64,000 nucleotides of DNA from assembly GCA_034435615.1 (NCBI GenBank), contig DAOTWZ010000042.1, forward strand, positions 1,936-65,935. The letters are read 5' to 3'. A model generated the notes under the pieces. It saw only the letters and a list, made by a program, of their open reading frames with translations. It searched no databases and was not told where the DNA came from. The DNA comes from Dehalococcoidia bacterium (lineage in GTDB: Bacteria > Chloroflexota > Dehalococcoidia > SM23-28-2 > HRBIN24). Of this stretch, positions 2,627 through 40,472 are shown one piece after another. Positions within the stretch are counted from its first letter, which is position 1. The number at the start of each line of letters is the position of its first letter. The translations under genes and the position numbers were made by a program.

Positions 2627-4091
2627 GGTCTTCCTCCTGGATGAGCCGCTTGAGGGCGGCGGCCCGGCGCTGACGCTCCTCCAGCGGCATGGTGAGGGCC
2701 TGGTAGAGGGCCTGCACCGTGCCTTCCAGGTCGGTGGGGCAGATGGAGAGGGCATACTCGCCGAGCTGCTCGTGGGCGCCGGCCATCTCGGAGAGGATGA
2801 GGACGCCATCCCCCTTGTTGACCAGCGGCCCCTCCTTGGCCACCAGGTTCATGCCGTCGATGATGGGGTTGACGAAGAGGACGTCGTAGAGGCGCATGGC
2901 GGCCACCGCCTGGGCGTAGTTGTGCTCGTAGAAGGCGTGGACGGGCTGCCAGTCCTCCTCGCCGTAGCGGTCATTGATAGCGTCGATGAGCTGGAAGACC
3001 TCGTCGGTATAGGTCCGGTAGACGCCCAGCTCGCTGCGGGATGGCACCAGGAACTGGAGGAGGGTGACGCGGCGGCGGAACTGGGGATAGCGCTCCAGGA
3101 GCTCCTCCCAGGCCCGCAGGCCGCGCAGGATGTTCTTGCTGGGCTCCGCCCGGTCCACCCGCACCACCGTCTGCTCCCCCAGGTAGCGGCGCAGGCGGGC
3201 CTGGTAGCGCTTAACCTCGTCGCTCTGGGCGTATTCCAGGAGCCCCTCGGCGTCCACGGAGATGGGGTAGCTGGCCACGTAGACGGTGTGGCCACGATAG
3301 GTGATGACGCTGTGGGAGTAGTCTATGGTGACGCCCCGCAGCATGGACTCGCAGCAGTAGAGGAAGTTGCGGGCGTCGCTGTCCGTCTGCAGGCCGACGA
3401 TATCGGCGGCGCAGAGGCTCTCGTGTATGGCCTCTCGCATGGGTCGGGGGAGGATGCCCCAGTAGCGGGGCGCCGGCCACGGGATATGGGTGAAGTGAAG
3501 TATCGTAGCCTGGGGCAGGAGGCGCCGCACCTCGGCGGTGGCCAGGTAGAGGTGGTAATCGTGGAGCATGACGTAGGGGGGCTCGGGGCTGGAGGCGGCC
3601 TCCGCCGCCACCGCCTGGGCGAAGGCGCGGTTGACGGGGATGTAGCCGCCCTCCCAGGCCTCGTGGGCGGCTCGGCCCAGGTTGGGGCTGCGAGGGGTGT
3701 TCCACATGTAGTGCTGGAGGAACCAGAGGAGTGGGTTGGCGAAGACGTAGTAGAAACGCTGGTAGACGCTGCGGGGGACGCTGACGAAGCGGATGCGCAT
3801 GTCCTGGTCCGGAAGGTCGATGGCGCCGCCCGCTTCCTCGGTGGCGCGGCGGTCTCCCTCCGTCATGGCTGAGGCGACCCAGATGGGCGAGACGAAGCGG
3901 CTGACGGCGGAGAGAGCGGTCACCAAGCCGCCGCTGCCCCGCTGGGGCCGCAGGCTGCCGTCGGCCTCCACGTGGAACTCCACGGGGCCGCGGTTGCTGG
4001 CGATGATGAGTCGTCGGGAGGCCAGCATCTCGCGGCAGAGGGCCTCCAGGCGCTCCAGCTTGCGGGCGCGGTCCAGACTGCTCGTCTGCAT
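2562..4091 (-). CDS. otsA: Trehalose-6-phosphate synthase (GT20)
   Basis: SNRGP, GGLVTAL, HDYHLYL, HFTHIPWP, VDRAEPSK, DGMNLVAKE and LSEMAGA motifs; start taken at ATG 4091. Confidence 0.92.
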   Translation of the reverse strand: MQTSSLDRARKLERLEALCREMLASRRLIIASNRGPVEFHVEADGSLRPQRGSGGLVTALSAVSRFVSPIWVASAMTEGDRRATEEAGGAIDLPDQDMRIRFVSVPRSVYQRFYYVFANPLLWFLQHYMWNTPRSPNLGRAAHEAWEGGYIPVNRAFAQAVAAEAASSPEPPYVMLHDYHLYLATAEVRRLLPQATILHFTHIPWPAPRYWGILPRPMREAIHESLCAADIVGLQTDSDARNFLYCCESMLRGVTIDYSHSVITYRGHTVYVASYPISVDAEGLLEYAQSDEVKRYQARLRRYLGEQTVVRVDRAEPSKNILRGLRAWEELLERYPQFRRRVTLLQFLVPSRSELGVYRTYTDEVFQLIDAINDRYGEEDWQPVHAFYEHNYAQAVAAMRLYDVLFVNPIIDGMNLVAKEGPLVNKGDGVLILSEMAGAHEQLGEYALSICPTDLEGTVQALYQALTMPLEERQRRAAALKRLIQEEDLMSWLERQLRDLRAVSKGEGL

Positions 4092-32355: not shown

Positions 32356-32428
32356 CTGGTGGGCCCGGGAGGATTCGAACCTCCAACCAACCGGTTATGA
32401 GCCGGCCGCTCTGCCGTTGAGCTACGGG
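32356..32428 (-). repeat. att copy: duplicated tRNA-Ile2 lacking its first 3 nt
   Basis: Identical to 39810-39882; the 5' end reads TCC instead of GGG, breaking the acceptor stem. Confidence 0.93.
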
Positions 32429-32499
32429 GGAACCCTGTCCACCTTGCCCTTCCCAATCCGGAACTCGCCCCTTCCCACCCCATAACGGGAGGTGTCAAG

Positions 32500-33390
32500 T
32501 TGGCCAGGGATGCCAACCGAGCGTCCGGTTGCCCGGCCCTCCTCAGGGGCTTCGCCCTCCACCTGGAGGCCCAGCGCCTCAGCCCCCGAACCCGCCAGCA
32601 CTACCTCCAGAGCGCCCGCCGCCTGCTGGCCTGGCTGGGGGAGGACCGTCACCCTGGGCGGCTCCGGCCAGGGGAGATGGCCGCCTTCCTCCAGGAAGCC
32701 TACCCCCAGAGGAGCGCCAAGACCCTCAGGGAGCACCTGCTGGCCCTCCGCCGCTTCTACCGCTGGCTCCAGGCCGAGGGCGAGGCCAGGAGCGACCCCA
32801 CCAGCTCCCTGAAGCTGCCCACCTTCCGGACGCCCCCCATGCCCGCCTACACCCCCGCCGAGGTGAAGCGCCTGCTGCTGGCCTGTGACCGTAGGAGCCG
32901 CCAGGGCCTCAGGGACTACGCCGCCCTCCTGGTCCTCTACGACACCGGCCTCCGGGCGGGCGAGCTGGTCTCCATGACCTGTGAGGGGCTGGACTGGGAG
33001 CGGGGAGCGGCCCAGGTGAGGGGGAAGACGGGAGCCAGAGAGGTGCCCCTGGGGGCGGTTGCCCTCCAGGCCCTGGAGCGCTACCTGAGGCGCTGGGGCA
33101 TCGAGTCTGGCCCCGTCTGGCGGGGGGAGCGAGGCCCCCTCAGCGAGAGCGGCCTCCTGCAAATGGTGAGGCGGCTCTCGGCGAGGGCGGGCGTCCCCCA
33201 CAAGGGGGTCCATGCCTTCCGTAGGGCGGCGGCCATCGAGATGAAGCGGGCGGGGATGAACGACTCCGACATCCTCCAGGTGCTGGGCTGGAAGTCCATC
33301 GCCATGCTCCGACGCTACACCCAGCAGGAGGCCCAGGCGCTGGCCTTCCAGGCCCACCGCCGCTTCTCCCCCGCCGACCGCCTGGGCTAG
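32500..33390 (+). CDS. Tyrosine recombinase/integrase
   Basis: LYDTGLRAGEL (R), GKTG (K), HAFRR (HxxR), VLGW, MLRRY (Y); SD GGGAGGTG, TTG start. Confidence 0.93.
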   Translation: MARDANRASGCPALLRGFALHLEAQRLSPRTRQHYLQSARRLLAWLGEDRHPGRLRPGEMAAFLQEAYPQRSAKTLREHLLALRRFYRWLQAEGEARSDPTSSLKLPTFRTPPMPAYTPAEVKRLLLACDRRSRQGLRDYAALLVLYDTGLRAGELVSMTCEGLDWERGAAQVRGKTGAREVPLGAVALQALERYLRRWGIESGPVWRGERGPLSESGLLQMVRRLSARAGVPHKGVHAFRRAAAIEMKRAGMNDSDILQVLGWKSIAMLRRYTQQEAQALAFQAHRRFSPADRLG

Positions 33391-33418
33391 AGGCCCCGTC
33401 CTGGCCAGCCCCCTGCTG

Positions 33419-33547
33419 GGAGACCGATGGGGACTCCGGAGACCGATGGGCCGTTCTTTCGGCCAATTCCCCCTGGACCTGGTGGGTCGCCGGGCAATTC
33501 CCCCTACAGTTCGGTCCATCGGTCTCCAGGGCTCCGAACGGTCTCCC
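33419..33547. repeat. Cluster of short direct and inverted repeats
   Basis: GGAGACCGATGGG at 33419 and 33438, inverted CCATCGGTCTCC at 33516, CAATTCCCCCT at 33464 and 33495. Confidence 0.75.
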
Positions 33548-33661
33548 TGGGGCAGGGTCTGGGGGCAAAGAATGTGATTCTCTGCCCTGGTCTCCCGAAG
33601 GATGAGGCTTCCCCCTGAGGGCTGGAGTGGGCTACCATCGGGGCCGTAGGGGGTAAGGGAG

Positions 33662-33760
33662 ATGCCCATCGCCTTCCTCGCCCTCGTCTCCCTCGTCGGC
33701 CTGGCCTTCCTGGGCCTGGTCCTCCTGGCCTGGGACAGTTGGAGGCGCTGGCTGAAGTGA
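33662..33760 (+). CDS. 32-aa single-TM peptide MPIAFLALVSLVGLAFLGLVLLAWDSWRRWLK
   Basis: Translated by hand, below the ORF-track cutoff; purine-rich SD (GGTAAGGGAG) directly upstream. Confidence 0.6.
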   Translation: MPIAFLALVSLVGLAFLGLVLLAWDSWRRWLK

Positions 33761-33830
33761 GGGGGACAGCCCAGAGGGAAGCCCTCTCCCCTTCGGGCTG
33801 CCCCCCAGCGCCTAGGCCCACTGCCGGCCC

Positions 33831-34001
33831 TCACCTCCCCAACACCCGCCGGGCCAAGGCCGTCGTCCGGAAGTCCAGCTCCTCCCTCAGCTCCTCGACC
33901 TCCTTCTGGAGCCGCTCCACCTCCTCCTCCAGGGAGGCGACCCGCTCTTGCAGCTCGGTCACCATGTCGGCAAGCTCTCGAAGGCCCCGCTCGATGCTCA
34001 T
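33831..34001 (-). CDS. 56-aa coiled-coil protein MSIERGLRELADMVTELQERVASLEEEVERLQKEVEELREELDFRTTALARRVLGR
   Basis: Translated by hand; AAGGAGG SD; clear heptad pattern. Confidence 0.7.
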   Translation of the reverse strand: MSIERGLRELADMVTELQERVASLEEEVERLQKEVEELREELDFRTTALARRVLGR

Positions 34002-34130
34002 CTCCTTCGCCTCCTTCCCTGGCTCGATGGTCTGGCCCGATGGTCTGGGCTGAGAGAGGGGAGCGAGGGCCAGAGGGTCAGAGGGTGCCCCACCTGGCTC
34101 CTGCCCCCCTCTCAGCCTCGTGGGCTCGGC

Positions 34131-34406
34131 CTAGGTGGCCGAGGCGGGCTCGCCCCGTAGGACCTCGTCGAAGAGGCTCCTGGCCCGCTGCCGCTCCTTC
34201 TCGGAGAGCAGGGGCCAGAAGGCGGCCACTAAGTGCCACGCCTGGATGGGGGTGGGCACTTCCGCCCTGTGGAAGCACTCGCTGGCGTAGCGGTAGCAGT
34301 GGCCACACTCCAGGGTGCAGCCCGCCTCGATGGCTGCCTCACCGCTCTCCAGGACGACGACCTCGAACCCGCCGGGTAGCGAGACCCGTAGCGCTACGTG
34401 GCTCAT
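34131..34406 (-). CDS. Element hypothetical protein with Cys/His cluster
   Basis: SD AAGGAGG; C-x3-CGHC...C-x-H. Confidence 0.7.
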   Translation of the reverse strand: MSHVALRVSLPGGFEVVVLESGEAAIEAGCTLECGHCYRYASECFHRAEVPTPIQAWHLVAAFWPLLSEKERQRARSLFDEVLRGEPASAT

Positions 34407-34547
34407 GGCTCGACCTCCTTTCGCTGTTGGGCTTCACCGGTCCAGGGGCGACGGCAGAGCCGTCGCCCGTCTGGCCTTCTCGGCAGGCAGGTGGGGGCAG
34501 AGGCGGCGGTGGGGCCTGGCCGCCGCCCCGCCCCCGTAGGGCATTGG

Positions 34548-34886
34548 CTAGGACCTGGTCTTGAGGACCTCGGCCAGAAGGCCGATGAACTCCGCCAGGG
34601 CCTGAGGGTCGAAGCTGACCACCAGGTGGACGGTGACGGCCCGCTCGCCCTCGCCCTCGGCCTGGGCGGGCTCGCTCCCGTTCACGCTGGCCACGGGGCG
34701 GGCTGCCTTCACCTTGGGGAACCTGCCCGACGTGTCGATGTCCAGCTCCCACAGGCCAGGCACGAGGGCCCGCCCCACCTTCGGGTCGAAGGCGTAGATG
34801 GGCTTCTCCTCGCCCTCGACGTGGACGACCCAGAAGGGGGCCTTCTGACCCGCCTTCTCCTCGACCTTGACAACCGTCGCCAGCAT
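34548..34886 (-). CDS. Element protein, putative OB-fold ssDNA-binding protein
   Basis: SD AAGGAGGT; alternating beta strands with exposed aromatics, then an acidic linker; fold assignment is inference. Confidence 0.55.
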   Translation of the reverse strand: MLATVVKVEEKAGQKAPFWVVHVEGEEKPIYAFDPKVGRALVPGLWELDIDTSGRFPKVKAARPVASVNGSEPAQAEGEGERAVTVHLVVSFDPQALAEFIGLLAEVLKTRS

Positions 34887-34959
34887 GCTCTAACCTCCTT
34901 CTCGCTCCTGGACTTCTGCCCTGGCCGATGGCCCCATACCCGGCCAGGGCCAATGAGAT

Positions 34960-34986
34960 GGGGGGTGCTCCCTGGGAGCACCCCCC
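34960..34986. repeat. Perfect 12-bp hairpin
   Basis: GGGGGGTGCTCC-CTG-GGAGCACCCCCC, no U-tract. Confidence 0.85.
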
Positions 34987-35005
34987 AAAGCCTTGAGATA
35001 AGACC

Positions 35006-35344
35006 CTAGCCTAGCTGGGTGATGCCCTTGCACCGCCGACACAGCCAGCCGTGCCGCCCGTCGGGGTAGGCCCAGTAGGCCACCTCAGTGGGCGCCTGGC
35101 ACAGGCACCACCGCCCCGTCAGGAAGATGCTGTTGGCGAACCCCAAGGCCAGGGTGAAGGCGTCGGTGTCGCCCGCCAGGGGTGTCGGCTCTCCGTGACG
35201 GGCCACCACCGCCAGGGCCAGCGGCAGTAGCTCCCTCGCCCGCCTCACCACCTGCTCCCGCTCGGCCAGGTGCTGCATCAGCCAGCACCGCTGCCCACAG
35301 GCCGAGAGGTCGGGGCACCACTCACATCCCGGGCCGTCGCCCAT
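35006..35344 (-). CDS. Element Cys-rich protein
   Basis: ATG 35344 after GGGAGG; CEWC-x5-C-x3-C and CLC...CRRC. Confidence 0.65.
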   Translation of the reverse strand: MGDGPGCEWCPDLSACGQRCWLMQHLAEREQVVRRARELLPLALAVVARHGEPTPLAGDTDAFTLALGFANSIFLTGRWCLCQAPTEVAYWAYPDGRHGWLCRRCKGITQLG

Positions 35345-35587
35345 GCTGCATCGCCTCCCTTCAGCTAGACTTCGAGAACCAGAGGGCGAGCGCCCGGGCG
35401 CTCGCCCTGATGCCGATGGAGACCTCTCAAGCCTTGGGGACGATGAGGGTAAGGGCGTGGCCAGGAGGGGTGAACCACGACGGGGGCCTGGAGGGCACAT
35501 TTGGGAACTCTCGACACCCTGAACTGGGAAATGTGACTCCTGCTCCTAAAAGACCTCCTATCCTCGTTCGCCGTCCCGTCATGGGCT

Positions 35588-35857
35588 ATGCTGAAGACGA
35601 TGATGCAATGGCGAAGGGCCGAGAGGCCCCGCCCTGCCGCCTTGTGGCAGACGGAAGCCCTCCGTCGTCTGGCCAGGCGATGGGAGCGAGAGCGGCCCTG
35701 GAGACCCTGCCCCTGCCCCCTTTGCTCGCCTCCGCCACCGCCCCCGCCGCCGTCCAGGTGCCCTCGCTGTGGCGGCGGCATCTACCAGGAGCGAATAGAC
35801 GGCGGCGTGGACCTCTACTGCATCGCCTGTGGCTGGCGACTGGCCCTATGGAGCTAG
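35588..35857 (+). CDS. Element zinc-ribbon protein with a polyproline tract
   Basis: CPCPLC-S-P8-RCPRCGG...CIACG; possible leaderless start at ATG 35600 after TATGCT. Confidence 0.6.
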   Translation: MLKTMMQWRRAERPRPAALWQTEALRRLARRWERERPWRPCPCPLCSPPPPPPPPSRCPRCGGGIYQERIDGGVDLYCIACGWRLALWS

Positions 35858-35931
35858 GCCACAGCCATGATGTAGTCCTGCTCCCCCAGACCCCAGTAAC
35901 CAGGTGGGCAAAGAATCACGAATCCGTATTT

Positions 35932-36417
35932 TCAAGAATTATGGACTGGTATTCTTTGGATGGCCTCGGCTAGAGTCGTCGCCCTGGTCCGGCACGCCCA
36001 CCTGACATCGGAGCCTTTGACGCCTCCGCCCCCTGTCCTCTGGACCAGCCTCTCCCGCTCAAGCCTCTGGAGGGCAGCTCGTAGCTGGTGGGCAGGGACA
36101 TCTATGCCCGCCAGTCGCTTCAGCCACTGGCGTAGGCCCCGGATGGTGGTGGGCTTGCCCCCCAGTCGCCTCAGCCCCGCCAGCAGCAGCAAGTCCAAGG
36201 CTGGCAAGGCGAGGATGGAGGGTCCCCTGGCCAGCACTTCGGCGATGCTCTCGGCTATGAAGCTGCCCCTGGACGAGCGGCGGAGGTGGAGCAGCCTTCG
36301 GCACTCAGAGCAGGCGGTGACGACTACCGCCTCGATGCCGACGCCAGGGAGCCCACAGCACGGGCAGAGGGCGGGCAGGACCTCCTCGTGGTCGTCACTC
36401 CTCTGGCAGTCCATCAT
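35932..36417 (-). CDS. Element zinc-ribbon plus winged-HTH protein
   Basis: CPCC...CSEC then PTTIRGLRQWL...LRAALQRLERERLVQR...RW; ATGA overlap with the upstream gene. Confidence 0.65.
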   Translation of the reverse strand: MMDCQRSDDHEEVLPALCPCCGLPGVGIEAVVVTACSECRRLLHLRRSSRGSFIAESIAEVLARGPSILALPALDLLLLAGLRRLGGKPTTIRGLRQWLKRLAGIDVPAHQLRAALQRLERERLVQRTGGGGVKGSDVRWACRTRATTLAEAIQRIPVHNS

Positions 36418-36914
36418 GGCTTCTCCTCCTGGGGCAGGAAGGGCTTCAGCTCAGGCAGCCGGTGGACCAGCTCCTCCTTCGGCACCCGTAGCGTGAGGGC
36501 ACCGTCCCGCTCCTCGGCCAGCAAGTAGACGAGGGCCTCGCCCATGTCCAGGAGGCTGCCCGTCACGGGGACGCCCCATCTCTCCGCCGCCTCCTGGCAG
36601 AGTTCTCGGGCCAGCCCCTGGACCGCTCGCCAGGTCCATCGCCTGCCATCCCACCCGACCAGCACAGCCAGGACCATGCAGGCGTGGCGGGTCGCCTCGG
36701 CGAGGTGGCGTAGCTCCAGGAGGAAGCTCTCGAACTCGCCCTTGGAGCGCCTGGCCTGGGCAGCCAGAGTCCGAAGCCTCGCCTCTACCCAGCGGGCGGG
36801 AGACTCCTCGGCCTCCTCCTCCTCGCCATAGAGACCGGGACAGCCCTCGGCTACGGCGGTCAGGAGCCCCCGCCCTGCCGCCTCTAGGCTACGGACCAGG
36901 GCGAGGGCAGCCAC
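36414..36914 (-). CDS. Element helical protein, possibly the C-terminal part of Rep
   Basis: GTG start without SD; the frame is open a further 108 codons upstream, to 37238. Confidence 0.6.
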   Translation of the reverse strand: MAALALVRSLEAAGRGLLTAVAEGCPGLYGEEEEAEESPARWVEARLRTLAAQARRSKGEFESFLLELRHLAEATRHACMVLAVLVGWDGRRWTWRAVQGLARELCQEAAERWGVPVTGSLLDMGEALVYLLAEERDGALTLRVPKEELVHRLPELKPFLPQEEKP

Positions 36915-37099
36915 CAGCAGGCGAGAGGAGAGGTCACACCGGGCGGGATAGGACTCGGGCGCCCCATCCCCTACCTCCCCCAGCGCCGCCTCCAGTCGCC
37001 CCAGGGGTCCAGCCAGGGCGGGGCGGGTATATCCTCTCTCCGTAGTCCTCGACTCTCCGCCCAGAGGGGCAGAGGACGGTGCTCCCCCTTGGTCGGGGT

Positions 37100-37155
37100 G
37101 CAGGGGCTCCGCCCCTGCAGTCGTCGGGGGGTCAGAGGGGGGCAGAGCCCCCCTC
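37100..37155. repeat. Tandem GC-rich triloop hairpins
   Basis: GCAGGGGC-TCC-GCCCCTGC (37100-18) and GAGGGGGGC-AGA-GCCCCCCTC (37135-55). Confidence 0.8.
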
Positions 37156-37197
37156 GGCTCAGGATGAGATGTCGGTGCTGCCGGGTGCTCTGGAACA

Positions 37198-37719
37198 TCA
37201 TCTCTGGATAGGACATCTGGATATGGGTGAACTCTGCTTCACCGGGGTGGTGAACTCTGCTTCACCGGGGTGGTGAACTGGAGTGCACCGGGGTGGTGAA
37301 GTGTGCTTCACCGGTGAACTCTGCTTCACCCCCTGGTAGACCTCGGTCCTGATGCCTCGCTGGGGCGTCTGGCGGTCGGGGCTCCGGTAGGTGGCGAGGT
37401 AGCCCAGCTCGGCGAGCCGTCGGAGGCTGTCCTTGGCCTGGCGGGGGGAGATGCCTGCCGCCCGGGCGAGGGTGGTGCTGGAGGCGAAGGTGGTCCTGGA
37501 GCGGCGGTCGGAGTAGGCGAGGATGAGGCCCAAGAGGCGGAGGTCCGAGAGGCGAAGCCGTCCGTCCAGGAGGGCGGCCACAGGGAAGCGGACCCACTTC
37601 CGTCCCGGTGCCCTGGGCTGCCTCCTGCCGCCCTTCTCTTGGCTCCCGGCCTCGGCGATGGGCCGGGTCTGGGCCAGCTCCTCTTTCGGTCGGCTTCCGT
37701 TTGTGTTAACCTTCTGCAT
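37198..37719 (-). CDS. Putative replication initiator (N-terminal winged HTH) with internal iterons
   Basis: LRLSDLRLLGLILAY...TFASSTTLARAAGISPRQAKDSLRRLAELGYL; SD AAAGGAGG; repeats in the 3' part of the gene. Confidence 0.8.
   Translation of the reverse strand: MQKVNTNGSRPKEELAQTRPIAEAGSQEKGGRRQPRAPGRKWVRFPVAALLDGRLRLSDLRLLGLILAYSDRRSRTTFASSTTLARAAGISPRQAKDSLRRLAELGYLATYRSPDRQTPQRGIRTEVYQGVKQSSPVKHTSPPRCTPVHHPGEAEFTTPVKQSSPISRCPIQR
37226..37330. repeat. Five palindromic 18-bp iterons GGTGAA-N6-TTCACC (putative origin)
   Basis: Units at 37226, 37249, 37272, 37295 (23-bp period) and 37313. Confidence 0.88.
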
Positions 37720-37795
37720 AGGGCAATCGCCTCCTTTCCGTGTGGTGTGGTGCCGTCCAGGGGAGGGCTAGAGCCAGCCCTCCCCTGGGGCTTCC

Positions 37796-38221
37796 TCAGC
37801 CAATCCGGACCACTCGCTCGGGCGGCACCCATGCCCACGGCCAGCCTGGGGCATCGGGCTGCCTGTCGAAGTCCCGGAGCCTGAACCACGCCTCAGGCTG
37901 CCCGTCGAAGGTGCCTGGGACGCCCACCTCTCGGGCCCTGGAAAGGGCCAGGCTGTAGTGCTCGACGAGGCCAGGCACCACCTGGACGCCCACCTCCAGC
38001 CGGCGGGCACCAGCCCGCTGGGCTATGTCGAGGGCCTCGGCCGGGATGCTGAAGGCGTCGCCCTTGAGCCTCGGTCTGCCGCCAAGGGCGTAGGCCAGCA
38101 CAACGGCTTCGTCCTCCAGGGAGAAGGTCACCTTGGCCACGACCACCTCCCTGCCTCCCAGGAAGGAGCGGCGGACAGTGATGACGAAGGGCGGCTTGGG
38201 GATGGACCTGGCGGTGGTCAT
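37796..38221 (-). CDS. Element hypothetical protein
   Basis: 141 aa; ATGA overlap with the upstream ORF. Confidence 0.7.
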   Translation of the reverse strand: MTTARSIPKPPFVITVRRSFLGGREVVVAKVTFSLEDEAVVLAYALGGRPRLKGDAFSIPAEALDIAQRAGARRLEVGVQVVPGLVEHYSLALSRAREVGVPGTFDGQPEAWFRLRDFDRQPDAPGWPWAWVPPERVVRIG

Positions 38222-38430
38222 GCCCTGGTCACCCCCTCATCGGCGTCGGCCTGGGCCTGGCGGCGGGACATCATCCGCCAGGTCCTTAGGGAGGTCTCCA
38301 GGGCGGCCAAGCTGGGGGCTATGAAGGCCTGGAAGGCCAGAAGCTCCTGGAGGTCGGCGGCACCCCTGAACCTCTCCCTCTGGCTGTAGGTGCCCCGGGC
38401 GGTATCGAGCTTGATGGTGATGGTCGCCAT
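38218..38430 (-). CDS. Element hypothetical protein
   Basis: 70 aa from ATG 38430 after GAGGAGGTG. Confidence 0.65.
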   Translation of the reverse strand: MATITIKLDTARGTYSQRERFRGAADLQELLAFQAFIAPSLAALETSLRTWRMMSRRQAQADADEGVTRA

Positions 38431-38543
38431 TGGCTGCTGCACCTCCTCGATGGGTCTCCATCAGGAGAAGGGGTAGCAGCGAGGCGATTCTATTCAGCCT
38501 GGCAGCCAGGGGTTAGGGGGCAGGGGGGCGAGCCTCGCTCTAC

Positions 38544-39533
38544 CTAGCGGCTTAGACGCTGCCGTAGGAGCCTCAAGGCTTCCTGGAGGCGGCGGGAGAC
38601 GGTGGGCTGGGAGAGTCGGAGGCGGCGGGCGACCTCCTGCTGGGAGAGCCCCTCCACGAGCGCCAGCCTGACGATGGCCCTCATCTCTTCGCTCAGAGTG
38701 GCCAGGGCCTCCTGAAGGTCCACCTTCAGCAGCACGACGTCCTCCTCCTGGACCGCCAGGGCGGGGGCCGAGGGCTGGGGATGCCCTTCTTCCTGGCCCT
38801 CCTCATGCAGGGGGGCTATCTGCCTCTTGGAGCGGGCGCTGTGGATGCCCCTGCCTAGCTCTTGTCTGAGCAGGCCCCTCACTCGCTCCAGGACGTGGGC
38901 TTCCGGCCCCAGGGCGGGCAGGGGCTGCCCCTCGACGACCAGGAAGCGGCGGGGGATGCCGGACCGGTCACGTCTAGCCTCAAGCTGGCTCAGGCCCCAG
39001 GCAGACTGGACGAGGGCGGTGGCGTCTTCGCCTCGCCTGACCAGTTGCTCCAGGAGAGGCCCAGTCCGGGGATGGCGATGGATGGCCTGCCGTAGGTCCT
39101 GGCCGGCGATGTGGTCCCAGCCTGCTTCGGCGGCCAGGGCTCGCTCCATCGTCCAGAAGATGAGGGCAGGCAGTCGAAGGGCCAGGGCGGTGCCGTTGCC
39201 CAGGGGGGCTATCGCCAGCCGCTCGGCCAGGTCCACATAGCAGGCGATGAAGGGAGGCGGGGCCTCGATGTCCCCAGCCTGCACCTGGCCCAGGGCTACT
39301 TGCCGTTGCAGCCCCAGGGCGTCCACCTCGCCTTCGCCCTTCAGCAGGACCCTCACCTGGTCATCGAACCTTGGCTCCAGGTCGCCCTCCTGGTGGACCA
39401 GAAGGGCGTAGGCCCAGCACCCCATCACCTGGCGGTGGAGGGCTTCCGCCTCGGCCCGTAGGGCAGGGGGGTAGTAGGCGGGGTTGCCCCGGCTCTCCTC
39501 GACGAAGGCGACGATGTTCTGCCACACGTCCAC
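38544..39533 (-). CDS. Element protein with a C-terminal sigma-70 region-4 HTH
   Basis: LQEALATLSEEMRAIVRLALVEGLSQQEVARRLRLSQPTVSRRLQEALRLLR; GTG 39533 after GGAGGG. Confidence 0.75.
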   Translation of the reverse strand: MDVWQNIVAFVEESRGNPAYYPPALRAEAEALHRQVMGCWAYALLVHQEGDLEPRFDDQVRVLLKGEGEVDALGLQRQVALGQVQAGDIEAPPPFIACYVDLAERLAIAPLGNGTALALRLPALIFWTMERALAAEAGWDHIAGQDLRQAIHRHPRTGPLLEQLVRRGEDATALVQSAWGLSQLEARRDRSGIPRRFLVVEGQPLPALGPEAHVLERVRGLLRQELGRGIHSARSKRQIAPLHEEGQEEGHPQPSAPALAVQEEDVVLLKVDLQEALATLSEEMRAIVRLALVEGLSQQEVARRLRLSQPTVSRRLQEALRLLRQRLSR

Positions 39534-39810
39534 GCTGGCCCCTCCGTGGGCGGGAGGGCTGGGGCTGCCACACCGGGAGGCCAGAGATGCCGGCGGGGCG
39601 CCCCGGTCCCTCTCGCCCACCAGGGTAGCCCATCCCCTGGGCCTGGAGCAAGTGGCGGCTTCGAACGTATGTTGCCTGGACGGGGGCACGAGGGGCCTGG
39701 CATCATGGGGGCTGTCCTGGGGCGAGGGACTGAGCGGCATTGTGGGCAGGGGGCCTGACTGAGCGCCCGGCTTGCCGGTGCTGGGGCAGGAAGCCGCTCT
39801 CGGTCTGCTC

Positions 39811-39885
39811 TGGTGGGCCCGGGAGGATTCGAACCTCCAACCAACCGGTTATGAGCCGGCCGCTCTGCCGTTGAGCTACGGGCCC
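39811..39885 (-). tRNA. tRNA-Ile2 (CAT anticodon, lysidine type), intact copy
   Basis: GGGCCCG/CGGGCCC acceptor stem with C4 and C5, loop CTCATAA, A73, CCA; paired G1-C72 excludes initiator tRNA; elongator Met is not formally excluded. Confidence 0.85.
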
Positions 39886-39939
39886 GCAGGCCCAAGACGA
39901 TTGTATAACTCCGCCGGGCGGGGGCACAAGGTCGCCCCC

Positions 39940-40472
39940 TCACAGGAGGGCAGGGTAGAGGACGCCCGCCTCCGTGACGCGGGCAGAGGGGCTGAGGGTG
40001 TGGGGCTCCCAGCGCCCCCTGTCCAGGATATGGCGCACCCCCACGCCCCGGGAGGTCAGGTAGTCGGCCAGGAGGAGGCGGTGGCAGCGAGCGTAGTGGG
40101 CCTCAGCGCACATGACAGCTGTGGTCCTGGCACCGGCCAGGACCAGGAGACGGTCCACCGCCTCCCGGAATTCGGGGGTGAGCATGTGGTCGGCGTAGGC
40201 GCGAAGGCCGGGGCTGCGCAGGCCGCCGTTGGGGGAGTGGGGCCCCAGGCCGCGGCGGCGTCCTCCCAGGGCCTCCAGGTGAAGGTAGTCCAGGCCCCGC
40301 CGGGCCAGCGCCGCGGCCAGGGCCTCCCCCCGGAAGTGGGGATGCCGCCGCGAGCTCGGGAAGCGCCTTATGTCCACCAGAAGGGCGATACTGTGGCCCT
40401 CCAGGAGCTCCAGGAACTCCTCCAGCCGACGGTTGGAGTGGCCGACGGTGTAGAGGACTACGCCCTCCCCAT
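39940..40472 (-). CDS. DUF488 family protein with an apparent 1-nt frameshift just after the ATG
   Basis: VVLYTVGHSNRRLEEF, VDIRRFPSSRR, ALGGRR, MCAE...CHR; ATG 40472 is out of frame. Confidence 0.75.

What the first reader, a model, noticed from the sequence alone, without database searches (positions are those of the whole stretch)
37226..37330. Iteron array inside the Rep gene whose degenerate arm removes an in-frame stop
Seen: five 18-bp palindromes GGTGAA-N6-TTCACC, four of them at a 23-bp period. That period is not a multiple of 3, so these are DNA-level repeats. Each unit would put a TGA on the coding strand. Units 1, 2, 4 and 5 place it out of frame. Unit 3, the only one where it would be in frame (37287-85), reads TGC (Cys) instead. 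Established: lambda-O-type initiators bind iterons inside their own gene. Inference: simultaneous selection for a binding site and an open frame, marking a functional theta-type origin bound by a dimeric wHTH.
Basis: partly seen in the sequence, partly recalled or inferred. Interest (0 to 1): 0.7.

Follow-up and report, generated by a model that had tools for sequence, protein, structure and literature searches.

The report
Lambda-style replication origin inside initiator gene
The five palindromic repeats are real and are very probably the initiator-binding sites of a phage-lambda-style replication origin, carried by a 7.5-kb mobile element inserted in a tRNA gene; it is a clear new example of a known design, not a new kind of system.

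Summary
Five 18-bp palindromes GGTGAA-N6-TTCACC lie at 37226-37330, spaced 23, 23, 23 and 18 bp, and occur nowhere else in the window. They form codons 130-165 of a 173-aa minus-strand ORF (37198-37719) whose residues 46-129 are a winged-helix domain (Pfam HTH_36; weak PHROG 'replication initiation' hits). Only unit 3 would place TGA in frame, and it reads TGC.

Remote homologues carry the same half-sites, mostly at about 23-bp spacing, directly after the winged-helix coding region, followed by a GC-poor stretch. They come from phage replication modules, Bifidobacterium genomes and planctomycete integrative elements. Lambda O and ori-lambda have the same layout. In these relatives the in-frame unit is also altered, usually to TGC, or the spacing avoids that frame.

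- The ORF stops 8 codons after the array, so there is no C-terminal domain.
- Unit 3 also differs at four spacer positions.
- The locus sits in a 7,454-bp element flanked by 73-nt repeats of tRNA-Met, with a tyrosine integrase.

Protein binding and origin firing are untested. Verdict: new member of a known kind, moderate interest.

The parts
37226..37330 (.). Iteron array: five 18-bp palindromes GGTGAA-N6-TTCACC starting at 37226, 37249, 37272, 37295 and 37313. They encode codons 130-165 of the minus-strand ORF.
37272..37289 (.). Unit 3, the only unit whose TGA would be in frame. It reads GGTGCACTCCAGTTCACC on the coding strand (TGC = Cys145 at 37287-37285). Its spacer CTCCAG is identical to the spacer of one unit in each of the relatives L123 and L152.
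37198..37719 (-). 173-aa ORF for the putative initiator, short form. Residues 1-45 are predicted disordered, residues 46-129 form the winged helix, and residues 130-173 are a tail encoded by the iterons and the GC-poor stretch. A Shine-Dalgarno-like AAGGAGG lies at 37736-37730.
   Evidence: Shine-Dalgarno-like sequence read (repeat family D13)
37333..37584 (-). Coding region of the winged-helix DNA-binding domain. Pfam HTH_36 matches residues 54-108. The AlphaFold2 core covers residues 46-112 at pLDDT 70-90, with a wing strand at 125-129.
37195..37225 (.). GC-poor stretch directly after the last iteron in the coding direction, the putative DNA-unwinding element. It is about 40% GC in a 70% GC window. 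It carries an exact direct repeat TATCCAGA x2 on the coding strand, 13 nt apart, and contains the ORF's stop codon.
37099..37119 (.). Perfect 9-bp GC-rich hairpin TGCAGGGGC-TCC-GCCCCTGCA downstream of the stop codon. Its role is unknown; it could be a terminator or part of the origin.
37135..37155 (.). Second perfect 9-bp GC-rich hairpin, GAGGGGGGC-AGA-GCCCCCCTC.
36414..36914 (-). Next gene downstream, 166 aa, with good codon-position GC signal. It has no relatives in the databases searched and no detectable similarity to the C-terminal domains of long-form initiators.
32356..32428 (.). Left copy of the 73-nt perfect direct repeat (attL). It is a partial tRNA-Met copy that lacks the 5' end of the acceptor stem.
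39810..39882 (.). Right copy of the 73-nt direct repeat (attR), lying within the intact tRNA-Met gene (39811-39885, minus strand). The two copies are 7,454 bp apart.
32500..33390 (+). Tyrosine integrase of the element, 296 aa. Pfam Phage_integrase E=3.9e-28 with a SAM-like N-terminal domain; PHROG integrase E=1.4e-41.

Best explanation
The array is the initiator-binding (iteron) part of a lambda-type replication origin. The origin belongs to a 7.45-kb integrative element inserted in tRNA-Met.

Proposed mechanism. The 173-aa winged-helix protein is encoded by the same DNA. Dimers of it bind each 18-bp palindrome. Four or five bound dimers, phased about two helical turns apart, bend or wrap the DNA. 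This opens the adjacent GC-poor stretch (37195-37225, with its TATCCAGA x2 repeats), where host replication proteins are loaded. After excision the circular element could then replicate.

Why unit 3 is altered. The origin descends from a lineage of O-like genes in which the iterons form the linker between the N-terminal DNA-binding domain and a C-terminal domain. In that setting the DNA must serve both as binding site and as open reading frame. A 23-bp period cycles through all three frames, so one unit in three would place its TGA in frame. That unit carries TGC here, as in several relatives. Position 5 of the half-site (A to C) therefore appears to be tolerated by the protein.

In this element the gene is a short form. 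It reads through the array and stops in the GC-poor stretch.

Shown: the anatomy, the frames, the domain assignment, the homologous arrays and their frame behaviour, and the integrated-element context. Inferred: protein binding, dimer stoichiometry, unwinding, use of the host replisome, and present-day activity.
For: - The array is real and unique in the window.
- The ORF's only folded part is a winged helix. Pfam HTH_36 scores 32.6 bits against a cutoff of 25. The best PHROG hits are all replication initiators, including 'replication initiation O-like'. The AlphaFold2 core covers residues 46-129, and the iteron-encoded tail is predicted disordered.
- The same half-sites occur at the same place in remote homologues.
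  - L122 and L125 lie in phage replication modules with YqaJ, AAA_24, SSB and RusA genes. Their unit GGTGAAGCACAGTTCACC differs by 1 nt from the window consensus GGTGAAGCAGAGTTCACC.
  - L123 has four GTGCA-N6-TGCAC units at exactly 23 bp.
  - Bifidobacterium L041 and L107 have seven units with the same mix of 23-bp and 18-bp spacings as the window.
  - Twenty-two metagenome loci carry such arrays.
  - Planctomycete integrative elements L083, L118 and L022 have winged-helix proteins related by profile comparison, hhalign 89.6% probability, E=1.9e-6.
- Where the N-terminal domain changes, the iteron changes with it while the 23-bp period is kept: L126 and L127 compared with P0006.
- The in-frame unit is TGC or CGA, or that phase is avoided, in all ORF-embedded arrays. 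Alteration of that triplet in out-of-frame units is rare.
- The 40 nt after the last iteron are GC-poor relative to the locus in all 14 arrays examined, lambda included. Eight of them, the window included, carry an exact 8-11-nt direct repeat at 12-15-nt spacing. The window stretch is in the lowest 0.12% of 30-nt windows for GC.
- Lambda has the same geometry (PMC7466680).
- Context: perfect 73-nt att repeats, a tRNA target and an integrase. There is precedent for an integrated island that replicates from iterons immediately downstream of its rep gene, namely SGI1 (PMC7433901).
Against: - There is no C-terminal domain, and no helicase, primase or loader gene was recognised in the element. How a helicase would be recruited is therefore unexplained.
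- The protein has no close relative anywhere. Conservation of this particular array cannot be tested.
- The GC-poor stretch is short, about 30 nt.
- The fold match is to generic MarR-like winged helices, which are typical of transcription factors.
- No direct similarity to lambda O was found.
- Binding and replication are untested, and sequencing-run evidence for an excised or amplified form could not be obtained.
Confidence: 0.75

Rival explanations
1. Fossil origin. The array and the winged-helix ORF descend from a lambda-type O gene and origin, but the gene lost its C-terminal domain and the origin no longer fires. The element is maintained only by integration. The TGC in unit 3 is a leftover from the long-form ancestor and is under no selection today.
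For: - The ORF stops 8 codons after the array.
- No helicase or loader gene is present.
- The third-codon-position GC content of the tail is 0.58, against 0.89 in the winged-helix part, so the tail is not shaped as coding sequence.
- TGC units occur in long-form relatives.
Against: - Three of the five units are identical and four are perfect palindromes, which is not the decay expected of a dead site.
- The winged-helix part has strong coding signal (third-position GC 0.89) and a Shine-Dalgarno-like sequence.
- Short forms recur independently in otherwise intact-looking replication modules. L125 is a 47-kb phage contig. L083 and L118 carry a primase-like gene and a DnaB-type helicase gene next to the short winged-helix gene.
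- The att repeats are perfect.
Confidence: 0.17
2. Operator array. The winged-helix protein is a transcriptional regulator. The palindromes are its operators and control the downstream genes (36414-36914 onward) or copy-number and incompatibility functions, not initiation.
For: - The fold search returns MarR-type repressors that bind 16-20-bp palindromes as dimers.
- The protein is small and consists only of a DNA-binding domain.
- The array lies upstream of the next minus-strand genes.
Against: - No sigma-70-like promoter was found anywhere in 34000-40200.
- Five phased sites followed by a GC-poor repeat-bearing stretch is origin architecture.
- Homologous arrays sit inside long-form initiator genes within phage replication modules.
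- All family-level hits are to replication initiators.
Confidence: 0.06
3. Partition site. The repeats form a centromere-like site bound by a segregation adaptor protein.
For: Tandem phased repeats are typical of plasmid centromeres (general knowledge).
Against: - No ParA- or ParM-type ATPase gene is present in the element.
- Homologous arrays lie in phage replication modules inside initiator genes.
- A GC-poor stretch sits directly adjacent to the array.
Confidence: 0.02

Closest known systems
Bacteriophage lambda ori-lambda and O protein, and the lambdoid Stx phages P27 and 933W
   Same: - The iterons are 18-bp inverted repeats. Lambda has four, spaced 20, 24 and 23 bp; the Stx phages have six.
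- They lie inside the initiator gene, starting right after the N-terminal DNA-binding domain (lambda codon 117, window codon 130).
- An AT-rich stretch follows the last iteron.
- The iterons contribute residues to the protein, and O binds as dimers (PMC7466680).
   Different: - Lambda O continues for about 150 more codons into a C-terminal domain, which recruits P-DnaB (general knowledge). The window ORF stops 8 codons after the array.
- The Pfam family differs: Phage_rep_O in lambda, HTH_36 here. There is no pairwise similarity.
- The lambda iteron has no stop-codon problem of this kind.
- The element here is a 7.45-kb integrated element without recognisable phage structural genes.
HTH_36 (PF13730) phage initiators: 'RepA-like replication initiator' of actinophages, and 'replication protein O' or 'primosomal protein I' of Klebsiella and Stx phages
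   Same: - Same Pfam domain.
- Relatives of the window protein (P0030 and the L041 protein) hit these annotated genes.
- An origin within or next to repA has been suggested for mycobacteriophage RepA phages (PMC7157519).
   Different: - The window protein itself gives no tblastn hit in the annotated phage or plasmid collections.
- Most of these proteins are long forms.
Salmonella genomic island 1 (SGI1) rep and oriV
   Same: It is an integrated element with int and rep genes and an iteron origin immediately downstream of rep. The origin has AT-rich regions and fires after excision (PMC7433901).
   Different: - SGI1 iterons are 17-bp direct repeats, not palindromes, and lie outside the gene.
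- The Rep belongs to another family (RepA_C).
- Replication depends on a helper plasmid.
Iteron plasmids such as P1 RepA, R6K pi, F RepE and pPS10 RepA
   Same: Winged-helix initiators bind phased repeats about 22 bp apart next to an AT-rich unwinding element (general knowledge; PMC4081077, abstract as listed).
   Different: - Those iterons are direct repeats bound by monomers that have two winged-helix domains.
- Here the sites are palindromes, which implies dimers of a single winged helix.
- No Rep_3 match was found.

Membership tests
Lambda-type origin (origin inside the initiator gene) | Three or more tandem inverted-repeat iterons of about 18-19 bp, phased roughly two helical turns apart | tested here: met
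   Five 18-bp palindromes spaced 23, 23, 23 and 18 bp. Lambda: 18 bp, spaced 20, 24 and 23 bp.
Lambda-type origin (origin inside the initiator gene) | The iterons lie within the initiator ORF, directly after the N-terminal DNA-binding domain | tested here: met
   The winged helix ends at about residue 129 and the array covers codons 130-165. Lambda: domain residues 22-115, first iteron at codon 117.
Lambda-type origin (origin inside the initiator gene) | An AT-rich unwinding stretch adjoins the last iteron | tested here: met
   37195-37225 is about 40% GC against a window mean of 70%, in the lowest 0.12% of 30-nt windows. The same feature follows all 14 related arrays examined. The stretch is short, so this is a weak pass.
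Lambda-type origin (origin inside the initiator gene) | The initiator has a C-terminal domain downstream of the iterons that recruits a helicase loader | tested here: not met
   The ORF stops 8 codons after the array. A frameshift fusion with the next ORF was rejected: third-codon-position GC of 36915-37238 is 0.63 against 0.85 in the real ORF. The downstream ORF has no similarity to known C-terminal domains.
Lambda-type origin (origin inside the initiator gene) | The initiator binds the iterons as dimers and the origin fires | not testable with these tools
   Needs gel-shift or footprinting assays and a replication assay.
Pfam Phage_rep_O (PF04492) | Profile match above the gathering score | tested here: not met
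   No Phage_rep_O hit at E<=0.1. Lambda O itself scores 123 bits. BLASTP against lambda O gives E=7.9.
Pfam HTH_36 (PF13730) winged-helix proteins | Profile match above the gathering score (25 bits) | tested here: met
   32.6 bits, E=7.2e-8, residues 54-108. The precomputed PF13730 assignment agrees.
GGTGAA-type iteron subfamily of HTH_36 initiators (defined in this analysis) | Half-sites GGTG(A/C)A and T(T/G)CACC separated by 6 nt, at 22-24-bp period, directly 3' of the winged-helix coding region | tested here: met
   Found in the window, L122, L125, L123, L041, L107, L134-L154, L139, L148, and L083, L118 and L022.
Iteron-plasmid Rep proteins (Rep_3 and RepA types with two winged-helix domains) | Two winged-helix domains, with monomers binding direct repeats | tested here: not met
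   A single winged helix, palindromic sites and no Rep_3 hit.
tRNA-integrating mobile element | Direct repeats derived from the tRNA flank the insert, and a tyrosine integrase lies inside it | tested here: met
   A 73-nt perfect repeat 7,454 bp apart that covers tRNA-Met. Integrase at 32500-33390. Excision was not tested.

The most novel reading that the evidence does not exclude
The most novel reading not excluded has two parts.

First, the recurrent A to C change (TGA to TGC) in the in-frame unit acts as a natural mutational scan. It would show that position 5 of the half-site is the one base the initiator tolerates losing. This initiator-iteron pair (GGTGAA-N6-TTCACC with an HTH_36 winged helix) would then have been conserved across phages and integrative elements of several bacterial groups.

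Second, a stand-alone N-domain 'short O', as in this element, would be a working minimal initiator. It would fire an origin with host factors only, with no helicase-recruiting domain and no element-encoded loader.
Probability: 0.3. Interest if true: 0.55.

Novelty: new member of a known kind. Interest (0 to 1): 0.38.

Why it matters
- The finding gives a probable origin and initiator for a small integrated element whose proteins, wherever tested (the initiator-like protein and the gene after it), have no close database relatives. Both parts are directly testable.
- It also shows, with sequence evidence from several lineages, how one stretch of DNA can satisfy a protein-binding code and a reading frame at once. 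The palindrome contains TGA and the 23-bp period cycles through all frames. The in-frame copy is therefore repeatedly 'repaired' to TGC or CGA, or the spacing is shifted.
- This identifies a half-site position that binding appears to tolerate losing. It also gives a simple signature for locating origins in unannotated phage and mobile-element sequence: peptide repeats such as GExxFT, PVKxSSP and RCxPVH directly after an HTH_36 domain.
- The design itself, an origin inside the initiator gene, has been known from lambda for decades.

Tried and rejected
- **Close relatives.** None exist in the collections searched. The word-indexed protein search found only the protein itself. The exhaustive HMMER search gave a best E-value of 3e-7, limited to the winged helix. 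There was no exact-protein contig on record, no tblastn hit in annotated phages or plasmids, and no metagenome contig with the window-specific two-unit pattern. Conservation of this particular array therefore could not be tested.
- **Sequencing reads.** The tool for looking at an excised circle, an empty site or copy number was not available for this window.
- **First genome-wide pattern.** Two units with a 0-12-nt gap was too loose. Five useful loci were recovered from it.
- **Split long-form gene.** I considered that Rep and the next ORF (36414-36914) are one gene split by a frameshift, because that frame is open from 37238 to 36417. I rejected this. Third-codon-position GC of 36915-37238 is 0.63 against 0.85 in the real ORF, and 31% of all 108-codon windows in this GC-rich DNA are free of stops.
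- **DnaA boxes.** Only two 7-of-9 matches lie next to the array, among 46 in the window. They are better read as the family-typical short direct repeats of the GC-poor stretch.
- **Promoters and terminators.** The sigma-70 promoter and intrinsic terminator scan found nothing in 34000-40200.
- **Downstream region structure.** Folding 36915-37230 as single-stranded DNA gave no unusual overall stability (z = -0.67), although two perfect 9-bp hairpins stand out.
- **Structure search.** It returned only generic MarR-like winged helices. The best sequence hit to a solved structure was the DnaD N-terminal domain at E=0.11.
- **Other element proteins.** The downstream ORF and the 398-aa ORF have no relatives in viral contigs.

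Full report
**1. The observation**

The region reads GGTGAACTCTGCTTCACC-GGGGT-GGTGAACTCTGCTTCACC-GGGGT-GGTGAACTGGAGTGCACC-GGGGT-GGTGAAGTGTGCTTCACC-GGTGAACTCTGCTTCACC. The units start at 37226, 37249, 37272, 37295 and 37313. A search for GGTGAA-N6-TTCACC with up to two mismatches finds these five sites plus two poor 2-mismatch hits elsewhere in the 64 kb. The expected number is 1.1, and none of 100 shuffles reaches 7. Tandem Repeats Finder reports the 23-bp period (3.9 copies, score 129) and the 18-bp step.

The array lies in a minus-strand ORF, 37198-37719, of 173 aa. A script confirms that the TGA present in each unit on the coding strand falls in phases 1, 1, 0, 2, 1. The phase-0 unit (plus 37272-37289) reads GGTGCA, giving Cys145 at 37287-37285.

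Two points need adding. Unit 3 also differs from the other units at four spacer positions. The ORF ends 8 codons after the array.

**2. The protein**

- Third-codon-position GC is 0.89 in the first 129 codons and 0.58 in the repeat-encoded tail. The tail sequence is therefore dictated by the DNA repeats, not by codon usage.
- Pfam gives HTH_36 (E=7.2e-8, 32.6 bits against a cutoff of 25, residues 54-108). Weaker hits are RepC N-terminal, DnaD_N and Replic_Relax.
- All meaningful PHROG hits are replication initiators, including 'replication initiation O-like'.
- AlphaFold2 folds residues 46-112, plus a wing strand at 125-129, as a winged helix at pLDDT 70-90. Residues 1-45 and 130-173 are left disordered.
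- Foldseek finds only generic MarR-type winged helices.
- The protein has no close relative. It is alone in the 5.8-billion-protein search. In the exhaustive search of 1.8 billion representatives the best hit is E=3e-7, confined to the winged helix.

**3. Context**

A 73-nt perfect direct repeat (32356-32428 and 39810-39882) covers almost the whole tRNA-Met gene at 39811-39885. The 7,454 bp between the repeat starts carry a tyrosine integrase at 32500-33390 (Phage_integrase E=3.9e-28). Apart from the integrase, the credible genes are read on the minus strand:

- a 398-aa protein whose only recognisable part is a sigma-70 region-4 HTH;
- several small ORFs without family matches;
- the winged-helix gene;
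- a 166-aa ORF with no database relatives;
- a protein with weak zinc-ribbon and winged-helix matches.

The flanks are ordinary chromosomal genes: MutS2, RarA, CoA pyrophosphatase, enoyl-CoA hydratase and lumazine synthase. The array therefore belongs to a small integrated mobile element.

**4. Comparative evidence**

The key lead came from the remote homologues. Several have, right after the winged helix, peptide repeats that are the three reading frames of the same palindrome: GExxFT, PVKxSSP and RCxPVH. DNA was then recovered for several lineages.

| Lineage | Array and setting |
|---|---|
| L122, L125 | Phage replication modules with YqaJ, AAA_24, SSB, RusA, dUTPase and ThyX genes. Four units of GGTGAAGCACAGTTCACC, 1 nt different from the window's coding-strand consensus GGTGAAGCAGAGTTCACC. 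Spacing 22, 24, 23 bp, so no unit falls in phase 0. |
| L123 | Four units at exactly 23 bp in which every arm is GTGCA/TGCAC, so no frame contains TGA. One unit shares the spacer CTCCAG with window unit 3. |
| L041, L107 (Bifidobacterium) | Seven units inside an HTH_36 gene (the open frame spans 405 and 433 codons stop-to-stop), with the same mix of 23-bp and 18-bp spacings. The phase-0 unit reads GGCGAA. |
| 22 metagenome loci | Every HTH_36 ORF that reaches a phase-0 unit of the array has GGTGCA there. This includes at least three separate lineages: a Bifidobacterium-type gut cluster, L139 and L148. Only about 1 of 70 out-of-frame units is altered at that triplet. |
| L126, L127 | Relatives of P0006 with a near-identical C-terminal domain but a diverged winged helix. 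They carry a different palindrome (ATGACAC-N4-GTCAT type) at the same place and the same 23-bp period. Again the phase-0 unit reads CGA. |
| L083, L118, L022 (Planctomycetes) | Small integrated elements. L083, the one whose genes were read, has primase-like and DnaB-type helicase genes, then a 145-aa winged-helix gene, iterons GGTGAAGC..ACTTCACC, an integrase and a tRNA-like stretch (not confirmed with the tRNA tool). The winged-helix ORF is terminated by the TGA of the first iteron in L083 and L118, and just after the first iteron in L022. These proteins are remote homologues of the window family (hhalign 89.6% probability, E=1.9e-6) and hit the same O-like PHROGs. |

L126 and L127 show that the N-terminal domain and the iteron co-vary. 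That is the modular behaviour known from lambdoid O genes.

**5. After the iterons**

In all 14 arrays examined, lambda included, the 40 nt following the last unit are GC-poor relative to the locus. The window has 0.45 against 0.70, and lambda 0.23 against 0.51. Eight arrays carry an exact 8-11-nt direct repeat at 12-15-nt spacing, which in the window is TATCCAGA x2. The window stretch is in the lowest 0.12% of 30-nt windows for GC. I first read the two repeats as 7-of-9 DnaA boxes. The family pattern explains them better. Two perfect 9-bp GC hairpins follow at 37099-37119 and 37135-37155.

**6. Comparison with lambda**

In NC_001416 the O gene (38686-39585) carries four annotated 18-bp iterons at 39034, 39054, 39078 and 39101, which is codons 117-145. 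They come immediately after the Phage_rep_O domain (residues 22-115) and are followed by an AT-rich stretch. PMC7466680 states that the lambdoid origin lies in the middle of O, that O proteins are dimers, and that the extra iterons in Stx phages add residues to O.

The window matches this layout feature by feature, with two exceptions. The ORF has no C-terminal domain. The protein belongs to HTH_36, not to Phage_rep_O, and shows no pairwise similarity to lambda O.

**7. Interpretation**

The array is best explained as the iteron part of a lambda-type origin bound by the protein whose gene contains it.

A palindrome containing TGA, repeated at a period that is not a multiple of three, must be altered in one frame. 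The family solves this repeatedly, mostly with the same A to C change. This implies that this half-site position is the one binding can best afford to lose.

For this particular element the selective reading is less secure, because only 29 more codons follow the rescued position and no folded domain is among them. Two facts argue mildly for continued constraint:

- Units 1, 2 and 5 are identical, while unit 3 stays divergent in its spacer too. This would be expected if homogenising unit 3 were harmful.
- The other read-through short form found, L125, also reads through its array and stops in the GC-poor stretch.

The alternative is that the TGC is simply inherited from a long-form ancestor. 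This cannot be excluded.

A frameshift fusion with the downstream ORF was considered and rejected.

**8. What is not shown**

The following remain untested:

- binding of the protein to the repeats;
- dimer stoichiometry;
- DNA unwinding;
- the mode of replication;
- whether the element excises;
- how a helicase would be loaded without a C-terminal domain or an element-encoded loader.

SGI1 gives a precedent for an integrated island that replicates after excision from iterons placed just downstream of its rep gene (PMC7433901).

**9. Verdict**

It is a new member of a known kind: a lambda-style in-gene origin with an HTH_36 initiator, in short form. Interest is moderate. It rests mainly on the recurrent solution to the stop-codon problem, on the conservation of the half-sites across very distant hosts, and on the fact that the proteins of this element that were searched have no close database relatives.

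Noticed in passing
window 32356-39882: A 7,454-bp integrated element is bounded by perfect 73-nt direct repeats that duplicate nearly all of tRNA-Met. It has a tyrosine integrase at 32500-33390, and all other credible genes are on the minus strand. The two proteins searched against the large protein databases (the winged-helix protein and the 166-aa ORF) have no close relatives, and the remaining genes give no or only weak family matches.
   Followed up: partly
window 35500-35960: The most AT-rich 30-40 nt of the whole 64-kb window lies at 35914-35957 (GC 0.27-0.33), inside the element. It sits beside about 400 bp with no clear coding signal. It could be a promoter region or a second unwinding site.
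   Followed up: no
window 38544-39740 (-): A 398-aa ORF lies next to the intact tRNA end of the element. Its only recognisable part is a C-terminal sigma-70 region-4 HTH (residues about 333-397). The first 330 residues match nothing.
   Followed up: partly
window 35932-36417 (-): A 161-aa ORF has weak zinc-ribbon (Top1-type) and winged-helix (GntR-like) matches. It is a second possible DNA-binding protein of the element.
   Followed up: no
window 37099-37119 and 37135-37155: Two perfect 9-bp GC-rich hairpins with 3-nt loops lie just downstream of the winged-helix ORF. No T-run follows them. They could be terminators or structural parts of the origin.
   Followed up: partly
L083:2005-2530 and L118:4438-4965 (Schlesneria MAGs): In these small integrated elements the stop codon of the winged-helix ORF is the TGA of the first iteron. 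The repeat that is rescued in the window is used as the terminator here. In L083 the neighbouring genes are a primase-like gene and a DnaB-type helicase gene upstream, and a tyrosine integrase and a tRNA-like stretch downstream.
   Followed up: partly
L152:2340-3324: The winged-helix ORF (2340-2687) stops 16 nt before a four-unit array. An overlapping ORF (2647-3324) crosses the array and continues for about 180 codons. This may be a frameshifted long-form gene or a sequencing error. One of its units shares the spacer CTCCAG with window unit 3.
   Followed up: no
L001-L119 (for example L001:1567-1608): Many of the Streptomyces loci recovered by the genome-wide pattern scan, and possibly some of the Rhodococcus ones, carry a conserved pair GGTGAAT-N4-ATTCACC / GGTGAAT-N4-ATTCACC in which the second spacer is the reverse complement of the first. 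This looks like a conserved operator unrelated to the present finding.
   Followed up: no
L003:3796-3963 (Saprospirales MAG): Six perfect copies of GGTGAAATATTTTTCACC occur at an exact 30-bp period. The half-sites are the same but the period differs. The context was not examined.
   Followed up: no
L041:640-745, L134 and relatives: In the Bifidobacterium-type arrays the stretch after the iterons carries three copies of GAACCGTCA at a 12-nt period. Within this one lineage the in-frame unit is CGA in two genomes and TGC in the gut-metagenome cluster, which suggests repeated independent fixes.
   Followed up: partly
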